A model generated the notes under the pieces. The model saw nothing but the letters and a program-made list of their open reading frames with translations. It had not been told where the DNA came from and did no database searches. DNA of 64,000 bases from Ignavibacteria bacterium (GTDB lineage: Bacteria; Bacteroidota; Ignavibacteria; Ignavibacteriales; Ignavibacteriaceae): positions 8,191 through 72,190 of the forward strand of contig JBBIGV010000011.1 in NCBI GenBank assembly GCA_037447335.1, written 5' to 3'. Below are positions 34,423-48,228 of this stretch, piece after piece. Numbering within the stretch: the stretch's first letter is position 1; each line of letters begins with the position of its first letter. The translations under genes and the position numbers were made by a program.

Positions 34423-35577
34423 CTACTCGTAGTAAGAAATAATAACCGGTCTTTCCGAAGCTGGTCCAACACCCCCAACCTTCCAGAAAGGAGCAGTTAA
34501 AACTTCTGAAGCTGGTCTGTAATAAATCTCTGTTCTTCCTTTAAATTCAAATATGCCTTTTGCAGTCATACTTCCATAAAGTTTGGATTTGCTGCTAAAT
34601 GAAATTTTTCCATATGAAAAAAGCTGTGCTCTGATAGTAGTATTGTTTCCACATTCCACATTTCCTTTTGCATAAATACCAAGATTGCTGGAATTCGGGT
34701 CTTCTGAAAGAATTGAAATATTTGCCGTTACATTAACATTACCTTTAACAATGTAAACACCATAACCCATAAAAGTACCGCTTATATTAAGATTGCCGCA
34801 GACATAAATGATTTTTGGATTATCTTTTGTTCCAAGTAATGTTGTACCGCTTACATTGAGATTTCCTTTATGAACTTCTGCTGCAATATCAATGTAATCG
34901 TCCGGTTCAAATGCGGGGATTTCAATTTCGTCACTCTGATAATGATTCGGACTTCCATCCGGATTAACATTAGGCACTATTTGAGTATTTAATCTGTGCC
35001 CCGGATTAGAGCTTGCAACGCCCTTATATGTAAGAAATCCTCTTATAAGGTTATTGCCATTCATTGTAAAATTTTTATTGGTATGAACATTTGAATTCCA
35101 GTTTGAGTTGTTATCGTCCCTGATATTCACATTCTGAATTGATATGTTTTCATCGGAAGCCATTGCATACTTCATAAACGGCGGTAAATTCCCCTTGGAT
35201 GCATTTGGTGATGGCAGCTCAACTACTGTTCTTATAATGTGTTCCTGGCTGCCGGATTTACCAACGGCAGTTATCAAGCGTCCGTGCTTCAATCCTTCAT
35301 CAGGACCATTAAAGTATTTGCTGGTTGTTTTCTGAATGGTTATTTCAACATCACCTTGATGAAGCTGGACTGATTTTGTTCCGGTCCACGATGTATCCAT
35401 TGAAAGGTCTTTGATTGCAATCTCTATTCCTGCTGAGGCATTATTCTTTGCATGCACATTCTCATATTCTGAAACAGAATTAGAGAACATGGAAGTATTA
35501 CTCCTGTTCATATTCAAACTCATAACCGAGAATATTAAGCTTGCACCTAAAACAACTATCAGCAGCATTTTGCCCAT
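34423..35577 (-). CDS. pilin-like N-terminus + beta-helix-like repeat protein, paralogue A (PilX-like minor pilin or tip protein candidate)
   Basis: The start is taken at MGKMLLIVVLGASLIF. Repeated GN(V/L)N(V/I)xG units are present. The C-terminus is YYRPA..L..PFWK.GG...RPVI.SYYE. I judged it by eye to be a clear paralogue of 35813..36970. Confidence 0.6.
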   Translation of the reverse strand: MGKMLLIVVLGASLIFSVMSLNMNRSNTSMFSNSVSEYENVHAKNNASAGIEIAIKDLSMDTSWTGTKSVQLHQGDVEITIQKTTSKYFNGPDEGLKHGRLITAVGKSGSQEHIIRTVVELPSPNASKGNLPPFMKYAMASDENISIQNVNIRDDNNSNWNSNVHTNKNFTMNGNNLIRGFLTYKGVASSNPGHRLNTQIVPNVNPDGSPNHYQSDEIEIPAFEPDDYIDIAAEVHKGNLNVSGTTLLGTKDNPKIIYVCGNLNISGTFMGYGVYIVKGNVNVTANISILSEDPNSSNLGIYAKGNVECGNNTTIRAQLFSYGKISFSSKSKLYGSMTAKGIFEFKGRTEIYYRPASEVLTAPFWKVGGVGPASERPVIISYYE

Positions 35578-35617
35578 TTTACAAACCAATAATTAAGTTA
35601 AACATAACTCAATTATG

Positions 35618-35632
35618 CAACTACCGTGCAAA
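35618..35632 (-). promoter_or_regulatory. shared 15-nt promoter/operator motif TTTGCACGGTAGTTG upstream of paralogue A
   Basis: On the minus strand it lies 40 nt upstream of the ATG at 35577. It is 14/15 identical to 38111..38125. It resembles the sigma54 consensus TGGCACG-N4-TTGC except that -24 GG is TG. Confidence 0.4.
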
Positions 35633-35751
35633 AGAAAAAGGCTAAAAACGGAGCAAAATCAAGCCTTTTTGCCCCAATTGATGTATCGAAATGATAAGGA
35701 GGATAATAATGAATCAGGAGAATAATTTGATATTTTGAAGTGAATAATACA

Positions 35752-35788
35752 GCGTAAAAATAAAAAAGGTGAGCACCGGGCTCACCTT
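35752..35788 (-). terminator. rho-independent terminator of the upstream minor-pilin-like operon
   Basis: 9-bp stem AAGGTGAGC / GCTCACCTT (35766..35788) with a minus-strand T-run. Confidence 0.7.
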
Positions 35789-35812
35789 CGTTAAAAATAA
35801 TCGGGTTGAAAT

Positions 35813-36970
35813 TTATTCGTAGTATGAAAGTATAACCGGTCGTGTGGCAATTGTCCCGCCACCGCCGGTTTTCCAGAAAGGAGATGACAATTCATCTGCT
35901 GCCGGTCTGTAATAAACTCCAACATTGCCATTAAAGTTAACTTTACCCTGTGCTGCCATGCTTCCGTGGACGCTGACATTACCATTAAGATTAATATCCT
36001 CAGAAGACAACAATTGGGCTTTTACGGTTACATTACCATTCATATTTATATTACCCTTTGAGTAAAGCCCAAGGTTACTGGATGTAGGGTCAATACCCAG
36101 AATATTAACATTACCGTTAATTGTTGTTGTTCCCTTAACAATAAATACTCCATAACCTTTAACATTACCATTAAGCGTCAGATTTCCACCTACATAAATA
36201 ATGCTCGGGTTATCTTTGGTGCCGAGTGTAAGATTACCGCTTACACTGTAATTACCCATATGTTTATGAGTTGCCAAACCGATATAATCCTCGGGGTTGA
36301 AATCAGGTATTTCAATCTCAGGCGATTTAAAGTGAACGGGATCCCCGTTAAGGTTTACATTAGGTTTAATATTGGTGTTTAATCTGTGCCCCGGAGTTGA
36401 GCTTGCTGTTCCTGTATATGATAAAAATCCCTTAATTGTTGGATTACCCGTCATTCTGAAATTTTTATTTGTATGAACATTGGCATTCCATAACGGGTTA
36501 AAGTCGTCTCTTACCTGCACATTGCCTGTCAGAGCAAAATCTTCTCCCGAAGCAATTGCATAAGTTAAAAACGGCGGCACTTTCCCAGGCGGTCCGGAAG
36601 AAGTTGGAAGCTGTATAACGGCTCTTATTATATGAGTCTGATCTCCAACCAAGCCGGTTGAGGTAACAAGTCTTGCGCCTATCAATCCTTCATTCGGTCC
36701 GTTGAAATACCTGCTTTGAGTGTTCTGAACAGTGATGGAAACGTTACCCTGATAAAGAGTCCGTTTGTTCACACCAGCCCACGCAGTATCGACAGAAAGA
36801 TTCTTTATTGCCAGCTCAATGCCCGCTGCAGCATTGTTTTTTGCGTGAACGCTTTCGTATTCCTGTACCGAATTTGTGACCATTTCGGTATTGCTGGTGT
36901 TCATATTCAGGCTTATCAGCGAGAATATTACGCCTGCGCTCACAACCACAATTAATAACATTTTGCCCAT
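35813..36970 (-). CDS. pilin-like N-terminus + beta-helix-like repeat protein, paralogue B
   Basis: MGKMLLIVVVSAGVIFSLISL followed by NGNV-type repeats (NLNGNVSVHG, NFNGNVGVYY). It has the same conserved C-terminus as paralogue A. Confidence 0.6.
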   Translation of the reverse strand: MGKMLLIVVVSAGVIFSLISLNMNTSNTEMVTNSVQEYESVHAKNNAAAGIELAIKNLSVDTAWAGVNKRTLYQGNVSITVQNTQSRYFNGPNEGLIGARLVTSTGLVGDQTHIIRAVIQLPTSSGPPGKVPPFLTYAIASGEDFALTGNVQVRDDFNPLWNANVHTNKNFRMTGNPTIKGFLSYTGTASSTPGHRLNTNIKPNVNLNGDPVHFKSPEIEIPDFNPEDYIGLATHKHMGNYSVSGNLTLGTKDNPSIIYVGGNLTLNGNVKGYGVFIVKGTTTINGNVNILGIDPTSSNLGLYSKGNINMNGNVTVKAQLLSSEDINLNGNVSVHGSMAAQGKVNFNGNVGVYYRPAADELSSPFWKTGGGGTIATRPVILSYYE

Positions 36971-37042
36971 TTTATTTAACCTTTATGTTAGTTTTTATTA
37001 AATCCATTTCGTTTCTCATCTTAGACTGAATCAGGAAGCTAA

Positions 37043-37570
37043 TTATAAGTTCCTCGGGAAAAATCTTCTCTTCCATGAGCCGGATACTTCGCCCTTTGAA
37101 TCTTTGAAGGAATCTTCTTTAAAAATTAATTCAATAGATATACTTTTGACTTTACTTGCTGCCTGGGTAACAATGCCTTTATCATCGTAACCTTCAACAA
37201 TAAATTTCTGAACCGGTGTAGTCCATTCGGTGACCGGGCTGCTGGTTCTTCTTTTTAACTCTACGATGCCCTGCCCTTTTGCAACTGAATAATAAACTGT
37301 GTCAACAACACCGTTATTATCCAGGTCGGCGAGAAAGGTTATAGAGGTTCCGGAAATATTTAATATTTTATCGCTGGCAGAAACCCTGTAGCCAAGTTTC
37401 TGAAAATCATGTTCGATTATTGCTCCAATCTCAGTTGCTGATCTTTGGGCAATTTCACTAAGCTTGGTTTCCTGGGATTTGGCGGAGAAATGAAAGGTTA
37501 ACCCTATTAAGGATAATAGTACCATTCCGCCAATTATATAAGATCCGGCTATATCTAATATGTGATGCAT
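37043..37570 (-). CDS. minor pilin-like protein (N-terminal hydrophobic helix, no canonical leader)
   Basis: MHHILDIAGSYIIGGMVLLSLIGLTF followed by a soluble beta-rich domain, in operon context. Confidence 0.45.
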   Translation of the reverse strand: MHHILDIAGSYIIGGMVLLSLIGLTFHFSAKSQETKLSEIAQRSATEIGAIIEHDFQKLGYRVSASDKILNISGTSITFLADLDNNGVVDTVYYSVAKGQGIVELKRRTSSPVTEWTTPVQKFIVEGYDDKGIVTQAASKVKSISIELIFKEDSFKDSKGEVSGSWKRRFFPRNL

Positions 37571-37576
37571 AATTAT

Positions 37577-38062
37577 TTAATAACTTTTGTATGAATAAAT
37601 TCTTACTGTGTCTGTCATAAACGGATGTGTTACTGTAACCTGGATTCTTTTAAGTCTTGAACGAACCAATAATGTGTCTATTCCATTATGTTCATTCACG
37701 TAATGAACCCTTGCTAAAAGATCAAAATTCCCACCGCGTAAGGTAGAATCTATCCTTGGGTGGAAATTGTAATCGTCAACATCATTAAACGTTGCAAATG
37801 TTTCACCAGGTTCGGGGCCCATAAGGTTTGGTGGTGTCAGTATATTAATATCAGATAGGATCGGGTTGCCAACCACAAAATGATCAAAGGCTTTTTCGGT
37901 GATTTCATTGATCAGGTTCTGCCCGACCGATGTTGCCATAACAATATATTCGGCGGAGAGCTTCTGCTCTTCGGAGCTTATAATTGTGCGGTTGACGTTT
38001 AACGCCAGAAGGGAAAAGAGAAAGATGCCGCCTATTACTAAGTATGTTTGTACGTTACTCAT
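37577..38062 (-). CDS. minor pilin-like protein (N-terminal hydrophobic helix, no canonical leader)
   Basis: The start is taken at MSNVQTYLVIGGIFLFSLLALNV. The longer TTG-initiated ORF reaching 38113 overlaps the promoter motif. Confidence 0.45.
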   Translation of the reverse strand: MSNVQTYLVIGGIFLFSLLALNVNRTIISSEEQKLSAEYIVMATSVGQNLINEITEKAFDHFVVGNPILSDINILTPPNLMGPEPGETFATFNDVDDYNFHPRIDSTLRGGNFDLLARVHYVNEHNGIDTLLVRSRLKRIQVTVTHPFMTDTVRIYSYKSY

Positions 38063-38110
38063 CTGAGGGCTTAAGATTGAGTTTATGATTATTATTTGAT
38101 AATACAAACA

Positions 38111-38125
38111 CAACTATCGTGCAAA
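38111..38125 (-). promoter_or_regulatory. shared 15-nt promoter/operator motif TTTGCACGATAGTTG upstream of the minor-pilin-like operon
   Basis: On the minus strand it lies 48 nt upstream of the ATG at 38062. It is 14/15 identical to 35618..35632. Confidence 0.4.
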
Positions 38126-38235
38126 TCTTTTTTATGCTTTTTCGAATGATTTCAAGCAGTACCTGTATTTAATGTGTATCAGCATGAAAAAAAGTTGCAT
38201 CTCAATCTCAGATTTACTCATAAAAAATTCCATCT

Positions 38236-38247
38236 ATTACCGGTAAT
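38236..38247. promoter_or_regulatory. perfect 12-bp palindrome ATTACCGGTAAT in the divergent pilin control region
   Basis: It is self-complementary. Related sites are TAACCGGTAAT at 38301..38311 and AATTACCGGT at 39724..39733. Confidence 0.3.
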
Positions 38248-38567
38248 AAATTGACTTATTATTAATTCGATTTAAATCTATTAGGATATTATATAATTAT
38301 TAACCGGTAATATTTACATTTTTAGATCCTGTAAAATCCATTTTTCTTAGAATTTTAGCTTCATCACTTTTATAAATTGTGCATTCGATAATTAACAATG
38401 TGTCCACAGAAATTAATACTGGAATTTAATGAGTGAGTTGTTTGATTGCCTTCTTAAAAACGGGTAAAAATTTATATTATTAGTAATAATTACACGTAAT
38501 AACTTCCATAGTTACCGATGCAAGTCCAACCCATCAAATAACTTATTGTAAAGAAATAAGTTACAGA

Positions 38568-38584
38568 TTGGCACAGAATTTAAT
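38568..38584 (+). promoter_or_regulatory. weak sigma54-like promoter candidate upstream of the first pilin gene
   Basis: In TTGGCAC-AGAAT-TTAAT the -24 element is perfect and the -12 element lacks GC. It lies about 47 nt upstream of the TTG at 38631. Confidence 0.25.
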
Positions 38585-38630
38585 GAGTTATATGCGAGTT
38601 CGAGTAATTACAAAATGAAAGAAAAGGAAA

Positions 38631-39011
38631 TTGGGACAGCAACAGTTATTACTAATAGTCCTTGGAATAATAGTCGTAGGAGTAGCCGTTGCATTTGCAA
38701 TTGCAATGTTCCGGCAGGGAGCTATTGACTCCAAGAGAGACCTGGTAATGAATGAAAATGCTAACCTTGCAAACATGGCAATTCAATATTATAGAAAGCC
38801 TCAGATGCTTGGAGGAGGAGGAAATACTTTTTTGGGCTGGGCTATTCCCTCAGAACTTATAATAACAGCCAGCGGAAATTACTGGGCAGAAGTTTACCAG
38901 GATAGCGTCGTTATAATAGGTACAGGCAATGACGTTGTTAATGGCACAGATTCTGTAAGAGTAAGAACAACAGTTACAGCAAATACACATTTTTCTTTAA
39001 TAGTTCATTAA
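38631..39011 (+). CDS. major pilin candidate P1 (leaderless, non-canonical)
   Basis: TTG start preceded by AAGGAAA. N-terminus MGQQQLLLIVLGIIVVGVAVAFAIAMF followed by an amphipathic helix. It shares a YY(R/K)KP..GGGGNTF.GW.IP motif with P2. Confidence 0.6.
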   Translation: MGQQQLLLIVLGIIVVGVAVAFAIAMFRQGAIDSKRDLVMNENANLANMAIQYYRKPQMLGGGGNTFLGWAIPSELIITASGNYWAEVYQDSVVIIGTGNDVVNGTDSVRVRTTVTANTHFSLIVH

Positions 39012-39070
39012 ACGTTCTTTTAACTTATTAACCTAACTAACATTATCAACAATCGTAAGGAGATCTAATA

Positions 39071-39436
39071 ATGGGTCAACAACAACTTCTCTTAATCGTG
39101 CTTGGCGTTATCATAGTAGGTATCGCTGTTGTAGTCGGTATCAACCTGTTCAATGCGAGCGCGGAAGAATCAGCAAAAGATTCGATTGTATCTGAGGCAA
39201 CAAACCTTGGCGCAATGGCTCAGCAATATTACAAGAAGCCAACCTCCATGGGCGGCGGTGGAAATACTTTCACAGGATGGACAATCCCGACTAATCTTGA
39301 CTCCACTGCTAATGGACAATATGCACCAACTGTTGCTCCTCAAGAGGTTACTATAGTAGGTACACCACATAATTATACCTGGACAGTAACTACAACCGTT
39401 ACACCAAACACAATATCATCTCAGGGTAGCTGGTAA
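39071..39436 (+). CDS. major pilin candidate P2 (leaderless, non-canonical)
   Basis: ATG with an AAGGAG Shine-Dalgarno sequence. An in-frame TAA 15 nt upstream excludes a longer leader. N-terminus MGQQQLLLIVLGVIIVGIAVVVGINLF, with a Thr-rich C-terminus. Confidence 0.65.
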   Translation: MGQQQLLLIVLGVIIVGIAVVVGINLFNASAEESAKDSIVSEATNLGAMAQQYYKKPTSMGGGGNTFTGWTIPTNLDSTANGQYAPTVAPQEVTIVGTPHNYTWTVTTTVTPNTISSQGSW

Positions 39437-39466
39437 TAAAATATTATCACTTCTTATATGATTACT

Positions 39467-39498
39467 AAGGCTGCTAAAAAGGCAGCCTTTCTTTTTTT
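39467..39498 (+). terminator. strong rho-independent terminator after the pilin genes
   Basis: AAGGCTGC-TAAAAAG-GCAGCCTT followed by TCTTTTTTT. Confidence 0.8.
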
Positions 39499-39547
39499 AA
39501 ATCTGTACCGCGTTGATATGAGTTATTATAAATTTCAATCCCTTGTA

Positions 39548-39665
39548 GAGGCTGACCAAAATGCAGCACAGATTACTAATCTGTGCTACGATGACTTTGA
39601 ATTTAATCTGAAATCAGACATATAAATTCAGAGTTGTTTGCAAAATTTACTTTTTGGTCAGCCTC
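39548..39665 (+). repeat. palindromic intergenic repeat element, copy 2
   Basis: Same orientation and near-identical sequence to 28815..28954. Termini are GAGGCTGACCAAAA / TTTTGGTCAGCCTC. Confidence 0.8.
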
Positions 39666-39830
39666 CTTTATTTAAAAATGCAGAAGATGTATTATCAATT
39701 ATCAATAAGTAATTTTTCTTCAGAATTACCGGTCAACTTATCCCAAAACCACCAAACTTGTTTCTTTTTTACCGATTTTTTACAGGCATGAAAATTGATT
39801 TATTCAGATAGAATTTTTAAAGGTATTATA

Positions 39831-41288
39831 ATGATTGAATTAAGATTTACAGCAGAAAAAATGAATGGGCAGGTTATAACCGGTACCCTTTCAGCAAAGT
39901 CTTTTTCTGAAGGCAAAAGGAAAATATCCAGGCTCGCCGAAAAGAACCAGTTGAAGATCAAAATTATCGAAAAGAAATCCACCTTTATTTATAAGGTAAG
40001 AAAGGGTAATGAAAAATCCCAGACCGGTGAGCAGAAAGCATTTACAAAACACGAAGTGCAGGAAGCCCTTGCAAGAATGGGTTATACGGTTCTTTCCATA
40101 AATAAAAAACTGCTGAACATCCGCAGAACACCACCCTTATCCGAAATCGTTACATTTGTGAAAATCAGCGCTGAGTTATTAGATCAAAAGCTCGCTTACA
40201 GCGAAATACTTACTTTATTAATTAACGATACAGAAAACAGAACTCTGAAAGAAACCCTCAGGGAAATAAACAGCGAGTTAAAAAAAGGCGCTGATAGTGA
40301 AGCTACTTTTCTCAAATACCAATCTGTATTCGGGAAGTTTACCGCATATATGCTCGGTCTTGCTTCCAAGAGCGGTAACATGGCGGAAATCTACAAAGCT
40401 ACGGCTAAGTTTCTTGAGCGGCGCCAGGAGTTCAAGAAAAATCTCCGTAGTGCTCTTATTACTCCTGCTGTAACAATCTTTGTTCTATTTCTTGCAGTTA
40501 TGTTTTATGTTGCTTACATCTTCCCTGAAACTGCGCTGCTGTTCATCAAATTCGGAATTGAAGTACCCCCGATGACAGCATTTACACTTTTGATAAGCGA
40601 TTTTATAGTTGATAACTTTTTGCTTGTTACATTAGCAGCCATTGCCCCGCCGATTGCAATCTGGCAATACAGCAAAACTAAAAAGGGGAAGCTGGTGGTT
40701 GATAAATACCTGCTAAACATGCCGGTTATCGGTTCGCTGATTCACAAAACTGTAATTGAAGTTTACTGCCGCGTATTCTATACTCTTTACAGCGGTTCTG
40801 CAGAAAGTATAGAGCCCATAAAAATTGCCGCCGAAGCCGCCGGTAATAAGTATTTTGAAGACAGGATCAAAAATGTCGCTATTCCATTAATGATCAAAAA
40901 AGGTGTAGGAATTACTGATGCATTCGTAGCCAGTGGAGTTTTTACCGATACTGCAATCTCCAGGCTTCACTCTGGAGAAGAGACGGGAACCATTAAAAAC
41001 ACATCCTTACAGTTGGCTAATTATTACGAAAGCGAGACGGTTTATAAGCTTAAAAACCTGATAGAGTTGATTCAGGTTATTATTGCTATGATTATCATGG
41101 TAGTAATGATTGCATTAACGCTTGTTTCTGCTGAAACAGCTACAGTAAGACCAAAGAACCCGGGACTTACCGGTTCACTGCACGATCAAAATACTACTAT
41201 TTATGCAGACAGGAATAATATTTGTTTCAACCAGCCGGAATTGACAGGTTTTTTTGCCGGGGATCAATCCGTGCTTAACAAATGCTGA
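39831..41288 (+). CDS. pilC: PilC/GspF-family platform protein
   Basis: Two T2SS-F type repeats with 3-4 TM helices. The start is taken at MIELRFTAEKMNGQVITG. There is a tail of roughly 50 aa after the last TM helix. Confidence 0.8.
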   Translation: MIELRFTAEKMNGQVITGTLSAKSFSEGKRKISRLAEKNQLKIKIIEKKSTFIYKVRKGNEKSQTGEQKAFTKHEVQEALARMGYTVLSINKKLLNIRRTPPLSEIVTFVKISAELLDQKLAYSEILTLLINDTENRTLKETLREINSELKKGADSEATFLKYQSVFGKFTAYMLGLASKSGNMAEIYKATAKFLERRQEFKKNLRSALITPAVTIFVLFLAVMFYVAYIFPETALLFIKFGIEVPPMTAFTLLISDFIVDNFLLVTLAAIAPPIAIWQYSKTKKGKLVVDKYLLNMPVIGSLIHKTVIEVYCRVFYTLYSGSAESIEPIKIAAEAAGNKYFEDRIKNVAIPLMIKKGVGITDAFVASGVFTDTAISRLHSGEETGTIKNTSLQLANYYESETVYKLKNLIELIQVIIAMIIMVVMIALTLVSAETATVRPKNPGLTGSLHDQNTTIYADRNNICFNQPELTGFFAGDQSVLNKC

Positions 41289-41321
41289 TTATTCATTACT
41301 AATAAATTCACAGGTTAATAG

Positions 41322-43115
41322 GTGATGATAGATACCAATCTTGAAATGACTGACAAAATCGGTTATCTGCTTTTCAAAAAAGGGATAATTGATGCACAGA
41401 TGCTTGAAAAGGCGCTCACTGCTAAGTCAAACGATAGAAGTAAAATAAAACGTAACCTTGCACAAATTCTTGTTCAGGATTTTGGTTTTGACCACGATAT
41501 GATTTTCAGAGAAGTGGCAATACTTTATGCATTCCGTGAACTCGATACCGCAGTTGAAGATATACCTCCGCAGCGTCTGGAAAGCATTAAGCAGCGGGTA
41601 AACAATGCCGGCGAAGTTCTGAAAAATCAGATGCTCGAGCATAAAGTTATTCCCTTTATGTACGATGAAAGAATTAAGGATAAACTTATACTTGCAGCAA
41701 TTGATCCGACCGACAGGAATATCCCTAAAATAGCGTTTGGTCTTAATGCAAAGAAGTATGAAGTAATCTATATTAAAAAGCGCGACTATGAAAAACTGAT
41801 CAATACAATTCTTCCGCCCGAGAACGTATATCTGAAAATGATGGAAGAAGCCGAGCCCGAATTTCAAATTGATAAAGATGAAACCGGGCTGGATGAAGAA
41901 GCGCTTGATGCAGAAATAAACCGCAGTGCATTAATTAACCTTGTTGAAGGCGCCCTGGTTGAAGGTGTAAGAAGAGGCGCCAGCGATATTCACTTCGTTC
42001 CTATATCGAATAATAAAACTGAAATTCTTTTCAGGGTTGATGGTGGTCTGCTGCTGTGGCACATCCAGGAAAGCACTTTGCCCGAAGCTGTTGTTGCGGT
42101 TGTTAAAGATCGATCAAAAGGCATGGACCGGTTCGAAAGAGAAAGAGCACAGGATGGTTTTATTCAAAGAGAAATTGACGGCATCGTAATTCGTTTCAGG
42201 GTTTCTGTCCTTCCTATGGTAGGTACAGAACTTAAAAATAAATTCGAAAGCGTTGTAATAAGAATTCTTGACGACAGGAAAGTAATAAGAGACCTCGATA
42301 AGCTCGGCTTAACCGGTTATGCAAGAGATGTTTTTGTTAAAGCAATAAATCAACCGCAGGGAATGGTAATCTTAACAGGACCGACGGGAAGCGGAAAGAG
42401 CACAACTCTTGTTGCAGCATTATACCAGGTAGTAGATCCATCCGTTAACGTTCTTACTGTTGAAGACCCCGTTGAGTATGTTATTGAAGGCGCAAGGCAG
42501 CTTAAGATCGGTTACAAAATGAATTTTGAGCAGGCAATCCGATCCATTCTTCGTCATGACCCTGACATCGTGCTGGTTGGTGAGATGAGAGATAAAGAAA
42601 CTGCTGAAACTGCAATAAAGCTTGCAAACACCGGTCACTTAACATTCTCAACTCTTCACACTAATGACGCACCGAGCGCAGTTGCGCGTTTATACAAAAT
42701 GGGTATTGAACCTTTCCTTATTGCTTACGCCATTAATTTGATTGTTGCGCAAAGACTTATCAGAAAACTTTGCCCGGATTGTAAAAAGAAGGTTGCAAAC
42801 TTTGACGAAGAATTCATGAATTCACTGGGACTGAACATTGCTGAGTGGAGAAACTATATCATTTACGAACCCAGAGGCTGCGACAAATGTAATAAAACTG
42901 GTTACAAAGGTCGGCTTGCAATTCACGAAGCTCTTTACTTTACCAAAGAGATAAGACAAATTATCGTTCGCTCCGGCGTTGAAGTTGATGAAGAAAAAAT
43001 AAGAATTCAGGCAAAGAAAGACGGATCTCTGAATTTGCGTGAAGCCGGTTTCGAAAAAGTAAAACTCGGCTTAACATCTCTCGAAGAAGTTATTGCCGGA
43101 ACAACTGATGAATAG
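41322..43115 (+). CDS. pilB: PilB/GspE-family assembly ATPase
   Basis: GspE N-domain, Walker A GPTGSGKSTT, Walker B DPDIVLVGEMRD, His box GHLTFSTLHTND and a tetra-Cys motif CPDC..CDKC. Confidence 0.9.
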   Translation: MMIDTNLEMTDKIGYLLFKKGIIDAQMLEKALTAKSNDRSKIKRNLAQILVQDFGFDHDMIFREVAILYAFRELDTAVEDIPPQRLESIKQRVNNAGEVLKNQMLEHKVIPFMYDERIKDKLILAAIDPTDRNIPKIAFGLNAKKYEVIYIKKRDYEKLINTILPPENVYLKMMEEAEPEFQIDKDETGLDEEALDAEINRSALINLVEGALVEGVRRGASDIHFVPISNNKTEILFRVDGGLLLWHIQESTLPEAVVAVVKDRSKGMDRFERERAQDGFIQREIDGIVIRFRVSVLPMVGTELKNKFESVVIRILDDRKVIRDLDKLGLTGYARDVFVKAINQPQGMVILTGPTGSGKSTTLVAALYQVVDPSVNVLTVEDPVEYVIEGARQLKIGYKMNFEQAIRSILRHDPDIVLVGEMRDKETAETAIKLANTGHLTFSTLHTNDAPSAVARLYKMGIEPFLIAYAINLIVAQRLIRKLCPDCKKKVANFDEEFMNSLGLNIAEWRNYIIYEPRGCDKCNKTGYKGRLAIHEALYFTKEIRQIIVRSGVEVDEEKIRIQAKKDGSLNLREAGFEKVKLGLTSLEEVIAGTTDE

Positions 43116-43136
43116 CGGGTTAAATTTTTTAACCGC
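43115..43136 (+). terminator. hairpin between the pilB and pilT homologues (possible attenuator)
   Basis: GCGG(G)TTAAA-TTT-TTTAACCGC. No clean T-run follows it. Confidence 0.3.
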
Positions 43137-43268
43137 TTCCCTGTTCTTTAACAGAATGACAGAGCTTTAAGTTCTATAACTGTTTTGAATATTATCAACT
43201 AACAGAATTCGCCTAAATAACAACATAAGATGATTTGGCTTATTGTTTGAAATTTATTCAGATAGCTA

Positions 43269-44552
43269 TTGTCTTTTAGAAATTTACATTATAATTTAAT
43301 AACTATCATTGGAAGTCGTATTGTGGCAATAACTGCAGGAAAAAATATACTGGTAAATTTTTCAGAAAACATTCCGGCATCCTTAACCGGTCCGGACAGA
43401 GCTGCCTATATACTCGAAAATATAGACCGGCTTGAGGTTGATGAAAAAGTTGCTCTTCGTAATCTCTTTAACAAATTGCTAACCAGCATGATTGAAAGAG
43501 ATGCCTCCGATATTGAAATAGGCGGGCACGGAAACGAAGGCTATATATGGATGAGAGTGCACGGAAAGAAACAGCGTATTTCCGATTTACCCCAATTCTC
43601 TCTTGATGAAACTGCTATCCTCATAATCAATCTGCTTAATGCAAATCAGAGAAAGTATCTTTCGCTTACCCGAAACCTTGATTTCAGCCATACATTTTTT
43701 TATGAGAGGAAGAAAACAAACATTCGTTTCAGAGCGGATGCTTACTTTGACCTCGATACTCTCGCATTGAATATGCGCGCCATCAATGCAACCATCAGAC
43801 CTTTTTCTTCACTTGGTTTTCATCCTGTTGCGGCAAAGATGATGAGTCATACCTATATCAAGTTCGGGCTGTCTCTTGTAACAGGAATTACCGGTTCCGG
43901 TAAATCTACAACTCTGGATTCAATAATAGATGAACATAATAAGATAGACCCCTGCCATATTGTTATAATAGCTTCGCCTGTGGAATATGTTCATAAATCG
44001 AATGTCTCGATAGTAAGGCATAGAGAAGTTGGACGGGATGTGCTTTCATTCAAAGATGGTGTTACGCAATCATTACGACAGGACCCCGACATAATTGTTA
44101 TTGGTGAAATGAGAGACCCCGATACTATCCTTGCTGCTCTTGAAGTTACGGATACCGGGCACAAAGTTTTTTCTACTTTACACACATCATCTGCATCAGA
44201 ATCAATTGACAGAATAATCGCAGAAGTTCATCCGAATGAGCAGGAACGTGTAAGGAACAGGCTTGCAGATGTTTTAATATCTGTAGTATCTCAAAAGCTT
44301 GTCCCAAGCCTTGATGGTAAGCAGGTGCTCGCTAAAGAAGTGCTGATCGTTACACCAAGTGTTAAAGCAGCAATAAAAAATAATAACGTAAGCGAAATTT
44401 ATATGATGATAAACCAGGGTGCCAACCAGGGTATGATAACAATGGAGCAGGACCTTAAGCGGCTTTATCTTGAAAAAAAGATTTCGCTTGAAAATGCAAT
44501 AGCATATGCAAATAATAAAACAAGAATTCAGCAATTACTGGCGGCAGCATAA
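43269..44552 (+). CDS. pilT: PilT-family retraction-type ATPase with an N-terminal extension
   Basis: Walker A GITGSGKSTT, DPDIIVIGEMRD and GHKVFSTLHTSS. The start is uncertain (TTG at 43269 or GTG at 43323). Confidence 0.8.
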   Translation: MSFRNLHYNLITIIGSRIVAITAGKNILVNFSENIPASLTGPDRAAYILENIDRLEVDEKVALRNLFNKLLTSMIERDASDIEIGGHGNEGYIWMRVHGKKQRISDLPQFSLDETAILIINLLNANQRKYLSLTRNLDFSHTFFYERKKTNIRFRADAYFDLDTLALNMRAINATIRPFSSLGFHPVAAKMMSHTYIKFGLSLVTGITGSGKSTTLDSIIDEHNKIDPCHIVIIASPVEYVHKSNVSIVRHREVGRDVLSFKDGVTQSLRQDPDIIVIGEMRDPDTILAALEVTDTGHKVFSTLHTSSASESIDRIIAEVHPNEQERVRNRLADVLISVVSQKLVPSLDGKQVLAKEVLIVTPSVKAAIKNNNVSEIYMMINQGANQGMITMEQDLKRLYLEKKISLENAIAYANNKTRIQQLLAAA

Positions 44553-46094
44553 ATGAAACCTGTAGTATCGGTATATTGTGAAGGCAATGATACAAAGATT
44601 GCCGTTTTTAGTGCAGAGAACGGTAGGATTAAAGTACTAAGAAGCGCATCTTTTGATGTGATGCAATCGGCAATGAGACTCGATGACGGTATAGCCGACC
44701 TTGCCCTTGAAGGTACCGACCTTGATCTTGAACAGATGAAAAAGCAGGGTGTCGAGTCTGATGGTTCGGTTAATGTTTCTGCCATCAGCTCGATAAATGA
44801 ATCACTGCGCGGAACAAATCTCAGTAAGTGTGATTTTATTACTGCACTCACTGAACCTTCTGTTTATTATCATGTCTTTGAAGGTTCTAAGCAGGCTCGC
44901 TCTTCCAAACTTAACGCAGATATTGCTCAGGAAATTCTCAATACAAAAGGAATCGGTGTTGATAAAGACACACTTGGCTATGTTGAATTGTCTGATAAGT
45001 CTTTGTTTGCAGCATTCATTGCGGGCGATGTAAATTGCTTTAAGCTTATAAATGCGCTGGCTAACTTCAATAACAAGCGTAATTATAAGATCACATCGGT
45101 TAAAAGTTGTGAAATATCACTTGCTTATTATGTAGCAAAAAGAAAGAAATTCTTTCCTGATGATTACTCGCTGATTGTCTATATAGGCAAAGAATACAGC
45201 AAGTTGATTTTCCTGCATGGCAGAAAATTAAAGCACATTGGCGCTACAATTGACATCGGTACACTAAATCTCCACACTTATGATGTTTACTTCTCCAAGA
45301 TACTTTTGGAAATGGAGAATGGTGGAATAAGTTCTCTTGATAATATTATCGTTTGCGGTGAGGATGATTCAGAAAGCCTGATACTATCTTTCTACGGAAC
45401 TTTCCCTGAAGCAAATGTGTCAAGATTAGAGTTTGAAGACCTTGATCTTACCGGGTTAAAACCTGAAGAAAGAGAAATCTTTTCTGCATTCAGCGTGCCC
45501 ACTGCCATAGCTATTGAATATTTCGATGAACTTAAGCAGGAGTATAAAGGCATAAACCTCCTGCCAAAGTATGTAAAAGAAGATCAGAAATTTTTCCAGT
45601 TTGGCTGGCACGGCTATCTGATGCTGCCTATACTATTCCTTTCCGCTTTGTTTATCACACAACAGATATTAAATAACCAGAGCACGATCAAACAACTGGA
45701 TAAAGAAATTACCGAGCAGACCATCCTTGTTAAAGAAAATCAGCAAATACTTTCCCAGATTGCTGAACTGGAAGCTAAGATAAGCAGCTTCGACAGGACA
45801 CAGGCAATCCTTGATTCGGTCTCTGTCGGCGCTGGTATCTGGACAAAAGTGGTTACTCATATTGCAGAGTTTTTTGGCGCCAGGAAAAACATCTGGCTAA
45901 CAAAACTTTCGCAGGATGGAAGCAACGTGGTGCTAGAAGGTTATGTGCTATCTAAAAATGTTCTAACAGATTTTGCTTATTCTATAGATTCGGCAATTCT
46001 CAAAAGTGTTTTTTATGAGGCTCTCAGGGAGAAGGACACTTATAAGTTTATGATCATCTTTAACCTTTCACAATTTCCGGAAGCAGATAAATGA
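44553..46094 (+). CDS. PilM-like actin-fold protein fused to a PilN-like TM + coiled-coil module
   Basis: 513 aa. The N-terminal roughly 340 aa are PilM-like, followed by the TM helix GYLMLPILFLSALFITQQIL, a coiled coil and a C-terminal alpha/beta domain. Confidence 0.65.
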   Translation: MKPVVSVYCEGNDTKIAVFSAENGRIKVLRSASFDVMQSAMRLDDGIADLALEGTDLDLEQMKKQGVESDGSVNVSAISSINESLRGTNLSKCDFITALTEPSVYYHVFEGSKQARSSKLNADIAQEILNTKGIGVDKDTLGYVELSDKSLFAAFIAGDVNCFKLINALANFNNKRNYKITSVKSCEISLAYYVAKRKKFFPDDYSLIVYIGKEYSKLIFLHGRKLKHIGATIDIGTLNLHTYDVYFSKILLEMENGGISSLDNIIVCGEDDSESLILSFYGTFPEANVSRLEFEDLDLTGLKPEEREIFSAFSVPTAIAIEYFDELKQEYKGINLLPKYVKEDQKFFQFGWHGYLMLPILFLSALFITQQILNNQSTIKQLDKEITEQTILVKENQQILSQIAELEAKISSFDRTQAILDSVSVGAGIWTKVVTHIAEFFGARKNIWLTKLSQDGSNVVLEGYVLSKNVLTDFAYSIDSAILKSVFYEALREKDTYKFMIIFNLSQFPEADK

Positions 46095-46981
46095 ACAGGA
46101 AAATAATCAGTACGCTCGGACTTGTCGGTTTGCTCGTTATCATCCTGCTGCTTGGCGGATTATATATATTTCTCTTTCAAAGAGGTGACCTTGAAACGAA
46201 AAGAGAAAAATTAAAAGAGCTTAAAGCTTATGATTACGATACAGATCAGCTTTTAAATCAGCTTGAAACTCTTGAATTGCGGTCTGCCGTTCTGGATTCA
46301 ATACTTGCAGCAAGAAAGTTTAATATACCCTATGATATTTCATCAATTAAGTTCTATGATTTTCTTAATAACATAAGCCGAAGTTTTTCTTCAAGCACAC
46401 AGATAGATATTGAATACATGGAACAAAAAGCCGATAAAGAATTTCAGTTTTATGAATATAAAATCGGCGGCACAGGTCCATTCAGTGATTTGTACAAATT
46501 ACTGGTTGCTATCGAAAACAGTAAAGAGCTGAAAAAGATAAACTCGGCAATGATGAATAATTATGTCGGCACCGATGAAGACGGCTACCCACAGTTTATG
46601 GTAAGTTATGTGCTCAATGTAAAAACATACTTTGCTGATAATAACAGATTTACTACTGCGGATTTTGTTGAAAATGATTTATCGGCAAGACCTGTTTATG
46701 ATGCATTCTTTCCGCTTATACGAAACGAAATACCTCCAAACATAGATATGCTGCTTGACGTTCAAGGCGCAAGGCTGCTTGCTCTTATTCCGGAAGGCGC
46801 ATTTCTTTCCGACAGCCGGGGTAATACCTATCTGATCTGGGAAGGCGACCCGGTATATCTTGGATATCTGACAAAAATAGACTACGATCATAATATGGTC
46901 AGCTTTATTCTGAATAAAGGTGGAATTATTGAAAAAGTGGACCTTGAGCTGGCTCAGGAAGATAAAACAAAGAAGAAATAA
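46091..46981 (+). CDS. PilO-like protein fused to a PilP-like C-terminal domain
   Basis: TM helix and coiled coil, then a ferredoxin-like core (YEYKIGGTGPFSDLYKLLVAIE), then PilP-like FFPLI...LLALIPEGAFLSDSRGNTYLIWEGDPVYLGYLTKID. Confidence 0.55.
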   Translation: MNRKIISTLGLVGLLVIILLLGGLYIFLFQRGDLETKREKLKELKAYDYDTDQLLNQLETLELRSAVLDSILAARKFNIPYDISSIKFYDFLNNISRSFSSSTQIDIEYMEQKADKEFQFYEYKIGGTGPFSDLYKLLVAIENSKELKKINSAMMNNYVGTDEDGYPQFMVSYVLNVKTYFADNNRFTTADFVENDLSARPVYDAFFPLIRNEIPPNIDMLLDVQGARLLALIPEGAFLSDSRGNTYLIWEGDPVYLGYLTKIDYDHNMVSFILNKGGIIEKVDLELAQEDKTKKK

Positions 46982-46998
46982 TATAGTGAGAGATTAAC

Positions 46999-48228
46999 AT
47001 GAAAAAGTTTTTTGTCTGTTTCGTTATTGTAATTTTTGCTGCCGGAAGTTTTTACCCGCAGCGTCACCTTGAAAAGCAGTTCAAGGGTTATACTAATCCC
47101 GAAGAGCTTGTTTCTTTATCGCCCGATATTTCGTTCAATCAGGCTGTTGAACTGCTTAGCAAAGTAAGCGTAAATATTACCGGCAAGAAAATAATTTCTA
47201 CTGTTGACCGGAGCGAACCTATCGGGATGGATATTCGCAATATGCCTTACGATAAGGTGCTGGTTATTTTGGTTCAATATGCAAATCTTCTTTTTGAAGA
47301 AAGAGAAGATGTGATTGTTATTAAAAGAAAGGGGGAAGAGAAAGAGAAAAGCCCGGAAACTTACGCGGCAGTTGATAGTCGTGAAGTAAAAATATCAGCA
47401 GTATTTTTTGAAATGGATGTAAATGCTTCCAAAGAAAGAGGTGTTAACTGGAAATTTTTGCTTTCAAAAAAGGGACTTGATATTGGCAGCGAAATGCGCT
47501 CTTTTACCGAACAACAGCAAACGGGCGGGCAGCAGCAAACACAGCAAACACCGGAGTTTAAAGTTGGCGGCTCTTCAACTTTTGATGCCGGCGGTTTCTT
47601 TGGTGAAGCTACTGCAATGTTCAAATTTTTTGAAGAAGAAAATCTCGGCGAAATCATCGCAAGCCCAAACATTATCGTTCGTGACAGAAACCAGGGAAGA
47701 ATTCAGGTGGGTTCCGATTTCTCTGTAAAGCAGCGTGATTTTGCAGGAAATATTGTTGAAAGTTTCTTCCCTACGGGCACAATAATTGAAGTTACTCCAT
47801 ATGTCTATAACGAAGAAGGCATAAATTATATGCTTCTTGATATTAAAGTTGAAAGAAGCTCGTTCGTTCAGGGTGAAGTTACAACCGAAGTCAGGAAAAC
47901 AACTGCTAATACGCAGGTTATTATGTTGGATGAAGAAGAAACTGTTATTGGTGGTTTATTTATAAATGAAGAAATAAAAATTAGAACCGGAATTCCGTTT
48001 CTGAAAGACCTGCCCTGGTGGGTATTTGGCATAAGATACCTTACTGGCAGCGACCAAACAGTTCTGAGAAAAAAAGAACTGGTTATCTTAATAAAGGCTG
48101 AACTTGTGCCAACTTTGAAAGAAAGAATTGCAGGTACTAAATCAAGTTCACCAATAAGAGATGAAATTTTAAGGAACAGAGATAGAATCCGGTATTATCA
48201 GTTCAATCAATCAACCGATGGAAATTAA
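46999..48228 (+). CDS. pilQ: short secretin (PilQ/GspD family)
   Basis: Signal peptide and an N0/STN-like domain. Secretin core IIASPNIIVRDRNQGRIQVG...GGLF...IPFLKDLPWWVFGIRYL. Q-rich insert QQQTGGQQQTQQT. Confidence 0.8.
   Translation: MKKFFVCFVIVIFAAGSFYPQRHLEKQFKGYTNPEELVSLSPDISFNQAVELLSKVSVNITGKKIISTVDRSEPIGMDIRNMPYDKVLVILVQYANLLFEEREDVIVIKRKGEEKEKSPETYAAVDSREVKISAVFFEMDVNASKERGVNWKFLLSKKGLDIGSEMRSFTEQQQTGGQQQTQQTPEFKVGGSSTFDAGGFFGEATAMFKFFEEENLGEIIASPNIIVRDRNQGRIQVGSDFSVKQRDFAGNIVESFFPTGTIIEVTPYVYNEEGINYMLLDIKVERSSFVQGEVTTEVRKTTANTQVIMLDEEETVIGGLFINEEIKIRTGIPFLKDLPWWVFGIRYLTGSDQTVLRKKELVILIKAELVPTLKERIAGTKSSSPIRDEILRNRDRIRYYQFNQSTDGN

What the first reader, a model, noticed from the sequence alone, without database searches (positions are those of the whole stretch)
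34423..48228. Type IV filament-like machine whose six pilin-like proteins lack leader peptides
**Machinery present.** The locus encodes a PilC-like platform, PilB-like and PilT-like ATPases, PilM-N and PilO-P fusions and a 409-aa secretin.

**Substrates look non-canonical.** None of the six N-terminally hydrophobic proteins beside the machinery (34423..39436) has a class III signal.
- There is no basic leader, no G|F(T/S)L cleavage site and no Glu5.
- Four of them begin directly MG(Q/K)x(0-2)LLIV.
- No A24 prepilin peptidase gene is in the window.

**Other departures.** The PilC homologue has a tail of roughly 50 aa after its last TM helix, and the PilT homologue has an N-terminal extension.

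**Interpretation.** Together this looks like a variant type IV filament system whose subunits may need only Met excision, or a different protease.
Basis: partly seen in the sequence, partly recalled or inferred. Interest (0 to 1): 0.85.

Follow-up and report, generated by a model that had tools for sequence, protein, structure and literature searches.

The report
Type IV pilus machine with leaderless pilins
A phylum of bacteria (Ignavibacteriota) carries a normal-looking type IV pilus motor whose predicted filament subunits start directly with Met-Gly and have no signal leader to cut off, which breaks a rule thought to hold for all such filaments.

Summary
Window 34423-48228 encodes a T4aP-like machine: PilC, PilB, PilT, a PilN-containing 513-aa protein, a PilO-like 296-aa protein and a secretin. 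Beside it lie six proteins with hydrophobic N-termini and no class III signal.

The two small ones (126 and 121 aa, MGQQQLLLIVLG...) belong to an unannotated family. It has more than 1,700 clusters at 50% identity and is essentially confined to Ignavibacteriota.

- **Start position.** In 135 family genes the start codon (ATG, TTG or GTG) sits at the same position. In-frame stops lie a few codons upstream.
- **Conservation.** Gly2 and Gln5 are nearly invariant. Residues 1-27 are 67% identical across clusters; the rest is about 30%.
- **Fold.** AlphaFold gives pLDDT 94, with a helix at 3-55 and a four-stranded sheet. The 175-aa protein also models as helix plus sheet. Foldseek found no significant match to solved pilins.
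- **Synteny.** The order pilin(s)-pilC-pilB-pilT-pilMN-pilOP-pilQ-RR-HK recurs in about 60 of 79 related loci.
- **Peptidase.** No A24 peptidase was found in the window or those loci. The Melioribacter roseus genome paper found no pilA or pilD.

Most likely this is a T4aP variant that assembles leaderless pilins. How the N-terminus is processed remains untested.

The parts
34423..35577 (-). Large minor-pilin-like / tip protein A. It is 384 aa from the ATG at 35577 (MGKMLLIVVLG...); the longest ORF starts at the TTG at 35589. It has an N-terminal hydrophobic helix and a C-terminal beta-solenoid-type repeat region.
   Evidence: It is a paralogue of B. The public gene call P0289 has the same MGK start.
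35813..36970 (-). Large minor-pilin-like / tip protein B, 385 aa (MGKMLLIVVVS...).
   Evidence: It has 123 homologues, nearly all starting MG[KR]xxL[IL]. Weak DUF7305 hit. Homologues hit DUF7305, DUF2572 and Bactofilin, and one distant homologue combines DUF7305 with a TadE/G-like N-terminus. The fold was not predicted.
37043..37570 (-). Minor-pilin-like protein C, 175 aa (MHHILDIAGSYIIGG...).
   Evidence: AF2 pLDDT 84, with a helix at 2-57 and seven strands. The family conserves LD(I/V)xG(S/A)xxIGG and a D(F/L)xK(I/L)GY motif. There are no Pfam, PDB or Foldseek matches.
37577..38062 (-). Minor-pilin-like protein D, 161 aa from the ATG (MSNVQTYLVIGG...). The longest ORF reaches 38113.
   Evidence: The family starts M-x-x-x-Q5-x-L-L, with stops just upstream in relatives. 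The public gene call is 161 aa. The fold was not predicted.
38569..38583 (+). Sigma54-type -24/-12-like element TGGCACAGAATTTAA upstream of the first small pilin gene. The -12 half is imperfect.
   Evidence: Sequence read. A related motif is found upstream of the first pilin gene in 23 of 76 loci, against 1% of control windows.
38631..39011 (+). Leaderless pilin-like protein E, 126 aa, TTG start (MGQQQLLLIVLGIIVVG...).
   Evidence: It is 51% identical to F. The stop lies 5 codons upstream.
39071..39436 (+). Leaderless pilin-like protein F, 121 aa. This is the probable major subunit (MGQQQLLLIVLGVIIVG...).
   Evidence: AGGAG ribosome-binding site and a stop 4 codons upstream. More than 5,200 homologues. 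1,714 50%-clusters. AF2 pLDDT 94.2, with a helix at 3-55 and 4 strands.
39467..39498 (+). Intrinsic-terminator-like hairpin plus T-run after the second pilin gene.
39831..41288 (+). PilC/GspF platform protein, 485 aa, with a 54-aa tail after the last TM helix.
41322..43115 (+). PilB-type extension ATPase.
43269..44552 (+). PilT-type retraction ATPase with a conserved N-terminal extension of about 48 aa.
44553..46094 (+). 513-aa bitopic protein. It has an unassigned 340-aa cytoplasmic domain, a TM helix, and a PilN-like periplasmic part (GspL-like layout).
46091..46981 (+). 296-aa bitopic protein. The N-terminal half is weakly PilO/GspM-like and the C-terminal half is unassigned.
46999..48228 (+). 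Short secretin of 409 aa. PilQ is the best-matching family.
48235..52169 (+). Single-domain response regulator (48235-48600) and a 1188-aa hybrid histidine kinase (48603-52169). Both are syntenic with the machine in most relatives.

Best explanation
This is the Ignavibacteriota version of a type IVa pilus.

**Proposed mechanism**
- PilB (extension) and PilT (retraction) act through the PilC platform.
- A PilN/PilO-type periplasmic scaffold and a small secretin complete the machine.
- Together they polymerise and depolymerise a filament. Its major subunit is the 121-126-aa MGQQQLLLIVLG... protein (two paralogues here).
- Assembly is primed or tipped by the divergently transcribed set of larger N-terminally hydrophobic proteins: C (175 aa), D (161 aa) and A/B (about 385 aa).

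**How it differs from known systems**
In every described type IV filament, the subunits are made with a leader that an A24 prepilin peptidase must remove. Here the subunits are made without a leader. The hydrophobic alpha1 helix starts at residue 1-3, so the protein inserts in the inner membrane already in assembly-competent form and no prepilin peptidase is needed.

**Residues that may replace the canonical N-terminus**
The invariant Gly2 and Gln5, and the Gln5 of family D, probably take over the roles of the canonical N-terminus and Glu5.

**Shown versus inferred**
- Shown: the gene content, the leaderless N-termini, their conservation, the predicted folds and the synteny.
- Inferred: that these proteins form the filament, that nothing is cleaved, and the roles of Gly2 and Gln5.
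For: **Machine.** It is T4aP-like, and PilT is present.

**Synteny.** The small genes sit directly upstream of pilC-pilB-pilT-pilMN-pilOP-pilQ in about 60 of 79 loci from different species.

**Start position.** In 135 genes the start is ATG (107), TTG (20) or GTG (8) at the same position. In-frame stops lie 0-15 codons upstream in nearly all, and only 5 have any upstream alternative start.

**Conservation.**
- Among 133 50%-cluster representatives, G2 is 133/133, Q5 131/133, Q4 127 and Q3 122.
- Residues 1-27 are 67% identical on average, against 32% and 28% for the rest. This is the conservation gradient typical of pilins.

**Predicted folds.**
- AF2 of F: pLDDT 94.2, with a helix at 3-55 followed by a 4-stranded sheet.
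- AF2 of C: pLDDT 84.1, with a helix at 2-57 and 7 strands.

**Gene-expression features.** The pilin genes have their own sigma54-like promoter (enriched 30-fold) and a terminator after the pilin pair. This resembles pilA genes.

**Absence of canonical parts.**
- No A24 peptidase motif or homologue is present in the window or in 1.3 Mb of related loci.
- Only one canonical prepilin motif appears in all those loci, on an odd short contig.
Against: - No filament has been seen, and there is no proteomic evidence.
- Foldseek gave no significant match of either model to solved pilins (best E 0.3-0.5). Profile searches found no pilin in PDB or Pfam. The pilin assignment therefore rests on architecture, conservation pattern and context.
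- Genome-wide absence of an A24 peptidase was not tested here.
- The invariant Gly2 is also what a -1 Gly cleavage site would look like.
- The head domain also occurs in non-pilin contexts: as tandem repeats in Sec-secreted proteins, and behind zinc-ribbon/TM N-termini.
- The A/B and D proteins were not folded.
Confidence: 0.62

Rival explanations
1. The subunits do have a leader, but it is only the dipeptide Met-Gly. A peptidase encoded elsewhere in the genome cleaves after Gly2, as prepilin peptidases cleave after Gly(-1). It could be an A24 enzyme or an unrecognised one. The mature proteins would then start with Gln (possibly cyclised to pyroglutamate) or Lys/Arg. The system would be a canonical T4aP with an extremely short leader.
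For: - Gly2 is invariant in the E/F family (133/133) and nearly so in the A/B family (MG[KR]).
- Aligned on that Gly, A/B (KMLLIVV) resembles mature GspK (VALLIVL; sequences).
- In the C family, the MG-bearing subfamily has its conserved Asp two residues later than the subfamily without MG. This fits a removable MG.
- From my own knowledge, not tested here: archaeal EppA-type pilins have Gln at +1.
Against: - No A24 homologue or motif is present in the window or in 79 loci, and pilD is reported missing in M. roseus.
- Family D has no conserved Gly before its conserved Gln5. Position 4 is G, V, T, A, L or N, yet the Met1-Gln5 spacing is kept. That argues the true N-terminus is residue 1.
- Q3 is the least conserved of the three Gln residues.
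- To my knowledge no leader shorter than about 5 residues is known.
Confidence: 0.2
2. The machine is real, but the six proteins are not subunits of an extracellular pilus. They might form a short periplasmic pseudopilus for a type II-like secretion or DNA-uptake device. Alternatively, the small proteins are simply membrane-anchored periplasmic proteins that happen to be co-located, and the real pilins are encoded elsewhere.
For: - The head domain is reused in secreted tandem-repeat proteins and in zinc-ribbon-anchored proteins, so it is not exclusive to a filament.
- There is no significant structural or sequence match to pilins.
- The secretin is small (409 aa) and the Bacteroidetes 'T2SS' is known to be a divergent T4aP-like derivative (PMC6668835).
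Against: - The TM segment is far more conserved than the globular part (67% vs about 30%). This is not expected of a passive membrane anchor.
- Synteny directly upstream of pilC is very strong.
- There is a separate promoter and terminator, and tandem paralogues, as for major pilin genes.
- A PilT retraction ATPase above the family cutoff argues for a dynamic pilus rather than a T2SS.
- No canonical prepilin lies near the machine in any of 79 loci, and none was found in M. roseus.
Confidence: 0.13
3. Annotation or assembly artefact: the true starts lie upstream, or a frameshift hides a normal leader. An example is the out-of-frame ATG at 38615, which reads MKEKEIG... just before gene E.
For: - Gene E uses a TTG start.
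- An ATG 16 nt upstream, in another frame, would encode a short charged peptide ending in Gly.
Against: - Gene F has an ATG, a good ribosome-binding site and a stop 4 codons upstream.
- 135 genes from 80 independent assemblies start at the same residue, with stops just upstream.
- All 120 closest database homologues start MGQQQLLLIVLGVI, as do 133 of 150 distant representatives.
Confidence: 0.02

Closest known systems
Type IVa pilus (Myxococcus xanthus / Pseudomonas aeruginosa / Geobacter type: PilA, PilB, PilT, PilC, PilMNOPQ, minor pilins, PilD)
   Same: - PilB is the best hit, both to the family model and in PDB.
- PilT is above the family cutoff.
- There is a PilC platform, PilN- and PilO-like scaffold proteins, and a PilQ-like secretin.
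- The small major-subunit gene has its own sigma54-like promoter and terminator.
- A separate cluster encodes larger pilin-like proteins.
- The predicted subunit architecture is an alpha1 helix of about 53 residues followed by a beta-sheet.
   Different: - The subunits have no leader peptide, no Gly(-1)/Phe(+1) site and no Glu5. Gln is at position 5 instead.
- No PilD was found.
- The PilM-equivalent is fused to PilN and is unrecognisable by sequence.
- The PilO-like protein carries an extra C-terminal half.
- The secretin lacks the long N-terminal domains.
- PilT has a 48-aa N-terminal extension.
Type II secretion system (GspD-O; GspL as a natural PilM-PilN-like fusion; GspK as a large pseudopilin without Glu5)
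   Same: - The bitopic 513-aa protein has the GspL-like layout: a cytoplasmic domain, a TM helix, and a PilN-like periplasmic domain.
- The largest pilin-like proteins lack an acidic or polar residue 5, as GspK does.
   Different: - A PilT retraction ATPase is present.
- There is no GspC.
- No sequence similarity to GspG-K or GspL/M was detectable.
- No GspO was found.
Divergent T4aP-derived 'T2SS' of Bacteroidetes (discussed in Denise, Abby and Rocha 2019, PMC6668835)
   Same: - It comes from the same superphylum (FCB).
- It is described as branching apart from T2SS and having a very divergent major pilin.
   Different: - That paper's detection models required a recognisable major pilin.
- It does not mention leaderless subunits or Ignavibacteria (0 occurrences).
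- Relatedness to the present locus was not tested.
TadG-like large pseudopilins of Tad/Flp pili
   Same: A distant homologue of protein B combines a Pfam 'Tad' (TadE/G-like) N-terminus with the same DUF7305 beta-solenoid region.
   Different: - The window proteins themselves do not hit the TadE/G model.
- The ATPases and platform here are of PilB/PilC type, not TadA/TadBC type.
Archaeal type IV pilins and archaellins (PibD/FlaK/EppA substrates)
   Same: - From my own knowledge, not tested here: many lack Glu5, and EppA substrates have Gln at +1.
   Different: - They still carry a basic leader and need an A24-family peptidase.
- The machinery here is bacterial T4aP-type, with a secretin.

Membership tests
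Type IV filament superfamily | Extension ATPase of the PilB/GspE family | tested here: met
   Pfam T2SSE 1e-101. TIGR02538 1.3e-126, aligned full length but below the equivalog cutoff. M. xanthus PilB 7e-86.
Type IV filament superfamily | Polytopic platform protein of the PilC/GspF family | tested here: met
   Pfam T2SSF 2.8e-29, two repeats. NCBIfam PilC/GspF 1e-39 to 3e-42.
Type IV filament superfamily | Subunits made with a class III signal peptide: a short, mostly basic leader ending in Gly/Ala, cleaved in front of a hydrophobic stretch of about 20 residues that usually has Glu5 | tested here: not met
   All six proteins start 0-5 residues before the hydrophobic stretch, with in-frame stops just upstream. 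There is no Glu5. The same holds in more than 130 family genes and in database representatives.
Type IV filament superfamily | Dedicated A24 prepilin peptidase (PilD/GspO/TadV/PibD) | tested here: inconclusive
   Absent from the window and from 79 related loci by the GxGDxK motif, tblastn with GspO, and Pfam on the small polytopic membrane ORFs. The rest of the genome could not be searched. It is reported as not found in M. roseus (PMC3534657).
Type IV filament superfamily | Pilin architecture: an N-terminal alpha-helix of about 53 residues with a hydrophobic N-half, followed by an antiparallel beta-sheet | tested here: met
   AF2 of F: helix 3-55 plus 4 strands, pLDDT 94.2. AF2 of C: helix 2-57 plus 7 strands, pLDDT 84.1. 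These are predictions only. A, B and D were not folded.
Type IV filament superfamily | Detectable sequence or 3D similarity of subunits to known pilins | tested here: not met
   There are no N_methyl or pilin hits in Pfam or NCBIfam. The profile search of PDB found no pilin. Foldseek against PDB gave a best E of 0.3-0.5, to unrelated folds.
Type IVa pilus | PilT-family retraction ATPase | tested here: met
   TIGR01420 4.3e-97, 325.4 bits against a cutoff of 319.1.
Type IVa pilus | PilM-PilN-PilO-PilP alignment subcomplex | tested here: inconclusive
   PilN-like part: Pfam 0.0047, profile vs M. xanthus PilN 8.3e-5, hhalign vs HofN P=0.003. PilO-like part: top PDB hit at only 0.053. There is no sequence support for the PilM or PilP parts.
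Type IVa pilus | Outer-membrane secretin PilQ | tested here: met
   Pfam Secretin 5e-24. The best NCBIfam model is PilQ at 2.5e-23, below the family cutoff.
Type II secretion system | GspC, GspL and GspM plus pseudopilins GspG-K; no retraction ATPase | tested here: not met
   PilT is present. Only a weak GspM hit at 0.052. tblastn and hhalign with E. coli GspG-M found nothing.
Tad/Flp pilus | TadA ATPase, TadB/TadC platform, Flp pilin with the GxxxxEY motif, and TadV peptidase | tested here: not met
   The ATPases score far better as PilB/PilT than as TadA (5e-13 range). There is no Flp motif in any candidate.

The most novel reading that the evidence does not exclude
A whole bacterial phylum builds retractile type IV pili without any prepilin processing.

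- The pilins are translated with the filament-core helix at the very N-terminus.
- They insert N-in without a basic leader.
- They are polymerised with (formyl-)Met1 or Gly2 as residue 1.
- A neutral Gln5 replaces the otherwise near-universal Glu5/N-methyl-amine charge pair.

This would be the first type IV filament family that lacks both the class III signal peptide and the A24 prepilin peptidase, the two features currently used to define and detect the superfamily.
Probability: 0.45. Interest if true: 0.88.

Novelty: new variant of a known kind. Interest (0 to 1): 0.78.

Why it matters
**Why the exception is unusual**
- The class III signal peptide and its A24 peptidase are treated as universal hallmarks of type IV filaments. 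This covers pili, T2SS, Com, Tad and archaella.
- They are built into the detection models. For example, the 'generic' TFF model needs a recognisable major pilin.
- A phylum-wide machine that dispenses with both would show that leader removal is not mechanistically required for pilin extraction and polymerisation.

**What it would explain and enable**
- It would explain why genome papers on Ignavibacteria reported 'incomplete' pilus gene sets.
- It would expose a blind spot in pilin-finding tools.
- It offers a natural experiment on the roles of Glu5 and N-methylation.

**Testability**
It is directly testable, because cultured members exist (Ignavibacterium album, Melioribacter roseus, Stygiobacter electus).

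Tried and rejected
**Searches that found nothing**
- Pfam and NCBIfam on all six candidates: no pilin, N_methyl or PilX_N hits. The 14 members of family C scanned singly gave nothing consistent.
- Profile of the small-pilin family against all PDB sequences: only chance KH-domain hits at E about 0.04.
- Foldseek of both AF2 models against PDB: nothing below E 0.3.
- Literature searches for leaderless pilins, for Ignavibacteria with type IV filament, and for pilD: nothing beyond the M. roseus remark. The I. album genome paper does not mention pili.

**Weak or unhelpful comparisons**
- hhalign between families: E/F against C gave 26% probability over the N-terminal 56 residues. E/F against D covered only the first 20 residues. 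This is suggestive, not significant.
- hhalign of the PilMN and PilOP family profiles against E. coli HofM/N/O/P and GspL/M: only HofN aligned, weakly.

**Ideas rejected**
- Gene E hiding a frameshifted leader from the ATG at 38615: rejected on family-wide start conservation.
- The 539-aa membrane protein (32747-34366) as a novel peptidase or glycosylase of the system: it has no family hit and no homologue in any of 79 related loci, so it is not part of the conserved system.

A genome-wide search for PilD in the source MAG or in complete Ignavibacteriota chromosomes. Collection scans were capped, and only 20-kb flanks can be fetched.

Full report
**1. What is in the sequence**

The window is a 64-kb piece of an Ignavibacteriaceae metagenome-assembled genome (NCBI GCA_964432855.1, contig CAYSPC010000011.1).

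On the + strand, 39.8-48.2 kb encodes the machine:

| Coordinates | Assignment | Support |
|---|---|---|
| 39795-41288 | PilC/GspF platform | Pfam T2SSF 2.8e-29; NCBIfam PilC/GspF about 1e-40, |
| 41322-43115 | PilB-type ATPase | T2SSE 1e-101; best family T4aP PilB 1.3e-126; best solved relative M. xanthus PilB 7e-86, |
| 43269-44552 | PilT | 325 bits, above the NCBIfam cutoff of 319, |
| 44553-46094 | 513-aa bitopic protein | see below |
| 46091-46981 | 296-aa bitopic protein | see below |
| 46999-48228 | 409-aa secretin | Pfam 5e-24; PilQ is the best family, |

- A family profile of the 513-aa protein hits M. xanthus PilN (8.3e-5) over residues 374-481.
- A profile of the 296-aa protein has M. 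xanthus PilO as its top hit, but weakly (0.053).
- The cytoplasmic 340 aa of the first and the C-terminal half of the second match nothing.
- 'PilM-N' and 'PilO-P' fusions are therefore plausible by layout, but only half shown.

**2. The six candidates**

Two small genes on the + strand lie just upstream of pilC:
- E: 38631-39011, 126 aa, TTG start.
- F: 39071-39436, 121 aa, ATG start with an AGGAG ribosome-binding site.

Four genes lie divergently on the - strand:
- D: 161 aa from the ATG at 38062.
- C: 175 aa.
- B: 385 aa.
- A: 384 aa from the ATG at 35577.

Reading the DNA shows a stop four codons upstream of F's ATG and five codons upstream of E's TTG. None of the six has a basic leader, a Gly|Phe site or Glu5. 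No A24 peptidase is in the window:
- There is no GxGDxK motif in any frame.
- tblastn with E. coli GspO finds nothing.
- The small polytopic membrane ORFs belong to other families.
- The 539-aa membrane protein has no family hit, but it lacks the A24 motif and any GspO similarity.

**3. The leaderless N-terminus is a family property**

- F has more than 5,200 database homologues, all unannotated. The 120 best all begin MGQQQLLLIVLGVI.
- An exhaustive HMMER search of 1.84 billion cluster representatives found 1,714 clusters at E<1e-3.
- Of the best 150 representatives, 133 start at residue 1 with [M/L/V]-G-x-x-Q. The frequencies are G2 133/133, Q5 131/133, Q4 127 and Q3 122.
- In 79 species-level genome loci plus the window I found 135 such genes. 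Their starts are ATG (107), TTG (20) or GTG (8) at the identical position. In-frame stops lie 0-15 codons upstream in nearly all. Only five have any upstream alternative start.
- Use of three different start codons at the same residue is strong evidence that translation begins there.
- The other three families behave the same way:
  - A/B almost always start MG[K/R]xxL[I/L].
  - D starts M-x-x-x-Q5-x-L-L.
  - C starts M(G)xxx(x)LD(I/V)xG(S/A)xxIGG.

**4. Are they pilins?**

Sequence methods say nothing. There are no Pfam or NCBIfam pilin hits, and a family profile finds no pilin in PDB.

AlphaFold2 models:
- F, with an 87-sequence alignment: pLDDT 94.2, one helix from residue 3 to 55, a Gly-rich loop, then a four-stranded sheet.
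- C, with only 16 sequences: pLDDT 84.1, a helix at 2-57 and seven strands.

This is the classical pilin architecture, and the alpha1 length matches the canonical 53 residues or so. However, Foldseek found no significant PDB match for either model (best E 0.3-0.5, to unrelated folds). The assignment is architectural, not statistical.

Independent support comes from the conservation gradient. Across 91 cluster representatives, residues 1-27 are 67% identical on average. Residues 28-55 are 32% identical and the remainder 28%. A passive membrane anchor would not be the best-conserved part of a protein. The filament-core helix of pilins is.

A, B and D were not folded. Homologues of B carry DUF7305, DUF2572 and Bactofilin-type beta-solenoid hits. 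One distant homologue joins DUF7305 to a TadE/G-like N-terminus. This fits a large TadG/PilX/GspK-like tip protein.

**5. Context in relatives**

- A scan of one genome per species found at least 474 loci. Essentially all come from Ignavibacteriaceae, Melioribacteraceae, Stygiobacter and unresolved 'Bacteroidetes/Ignavibacteria' MAGs.
- In about 60 of 79 fetched loci the order is aspS - [optional A/B-C-D cluster] - one to three small pilin genes - pilC - pilB - pilT - pilMN - pilOP - pilQ - response regulator - hybrid kinase.
- The A/B/C/D cluster is adjacent in about 17 loci.
- Across all ORFs of these loci (1.3 Mb) there is a single canonical prepilin motif, on a short odd contig (L055). There is no A24 homologue.
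- A sigma54-type -24/-12 element precedes the first pilin gene in 23 of 76 loci, against 1% of control windows. The window has TGGCAC-N5-TTAA at 38569-38583.
- A terminator follows the second pilin gene.
- An NtrC-type sigma54 activator and a kinase lie at 52.8-56.2 kb. This is reminiscent of PilS/PilR control of pilA, but it is not shown to act here.

**6. Literature**

- The M. roseus genome paper noted pilT, pilQ, pilB and pilC. [quoted passage not shown]
- The I. album genome paper does not mention pili.
- The TFF superfamily survey does not mention Ignavibacteria. It requires a recognisable major pilin for detection (PMC6668835).
- I found no paper describing leaderless pilins.

**7. Mechanism**

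Most likely (0.62), this is a T4aP variant whose subunits need no prepilin peptidase. Steps in the inferred mechanism:
- Membrane insertion is N-in. This would be driven by the acidic C-terminal flank (…NANAEESAKD) rather than by a basic leader.
- PilB-driven extraction through PilC.
- Priming by C, D and A/B.
- PilT-driven retraction.

The register M1=F1, Q5=E5 is attractive for three reasons:
- Q5 is the best-conserved Gln.
- Family D keeps the Met1-Gln5 spacing without a conserved Gly.
- The predicted alpha1 spans 3-55.

A neutral Gln5 would make sense if the N-terminus is uncharged (formylated) or otherwise not buried as a cation. This is speculation.

The main rival (0.20) is a two-residue MG leader cleaved after the invariant Gly2 by an enzyme encoded elsewhere. 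A pseudopilus or non-filament role is less likely (0.13), given PilT and the conservation pattern. An annotation artefact is excluded (0.02).

**8. Side claims**

- The 54-aa PilC tail is real here but lineage-specific. Relatives have 15-42 residues, median 26.
- The PilT N-terminal extension of about 48 aa is conserved in 59 relatives.

**9. Verdict**

- It is not a member of the type IV filament family by the current definition. The class III signal was tested and not met, and the peptidase was not found. It almost certainly works like a T4aP.
- Novelty: a new variant of a known kind, phylum-wide, unannotated, and experimentally tractable.

Noticed in passing
P0122, P0128, P0156, P0266 and P0144, P0211, P0251 (hits): The head domain of the small pilin-like family (about residues 27-100 of F) also occurs outside pilin-like proteins. 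It forms five tandem repeats in a 581-aa protein with a Sec signal peptide. It also sits behind an N-terminal zinc ribbon plus extra TM segments. Pfam has no model for the repeat.
   Followed up: partly
window 38569-38583; upstream regions of L002, L003, L007, L011, L027, L051 and others: A sigma54-type -24/-12 promoter element (TGGCAC-N5-TTGC-like) precedes the first pilin gene in 23 of 76 loci, against 1% of control windows. The window copy has an imperfect -12 half.
   Followed up: partly
window 52844-56204 (- strand): A hybrid histidine kinase (52844-54829) and an NtrC-type sigma54-dependent response regulator (54834-56204) lie about 4.6 kb downstream of the pilus operon. They are a possible PilS/PilR analogue, but no link was tested.
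   Followed up: no
L055:5555-6250: This is the only canonical prepilin (…[31 protein letters not shown], DUF1559-like) among all ORFs of the 79 related loci. It sits on a 6.2-kb contig whose other end carries a partial MGQQQ-family gene. The contig may be chimeric or mis-binned.
   Followed up: no
window 32747-34366 (+): A 539-aa polytopic membrane protein lies between aspS and the minor-pilin cluster. It has no Pfam or NCBIfam hit and no homologue in any of the 79 related loci.
   Followed up: partly
window 8000-12000: A low-GC stretch (31-33% against about 38-39% elsewhere) contains DNA-methyltransferase-like ORFs (8735-9613, 11119-11532). It looks like an acquired restriction-modification island.
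   Followed up: no
window 57187-58149 (+): Two adjacent same-strand ORFs (130 aa and 181 aa) carry similar Gly/Thr/Trp-rich repeats. They look like one gene split by a frameshift or stop.
   Followed up: no
window 3373-4828 (-): Two overlapping ORFs (3373-3906 and 3872-4828) in the carotenoid gene cluster look like one desaturase-type gene interrupted by a frameshift.
   Followed up: no
P0252, P0130, P0159, P0257: Rare family members have a short basic N-terminus (MRKKGLINLGQQQ…, MEGKSKMGQKQ…, MKKKRIILIV…). They could be over-extended gene calls, or relics or variants with a real leader. They may be informative about how the leaderless state arose.
   Followed up: no
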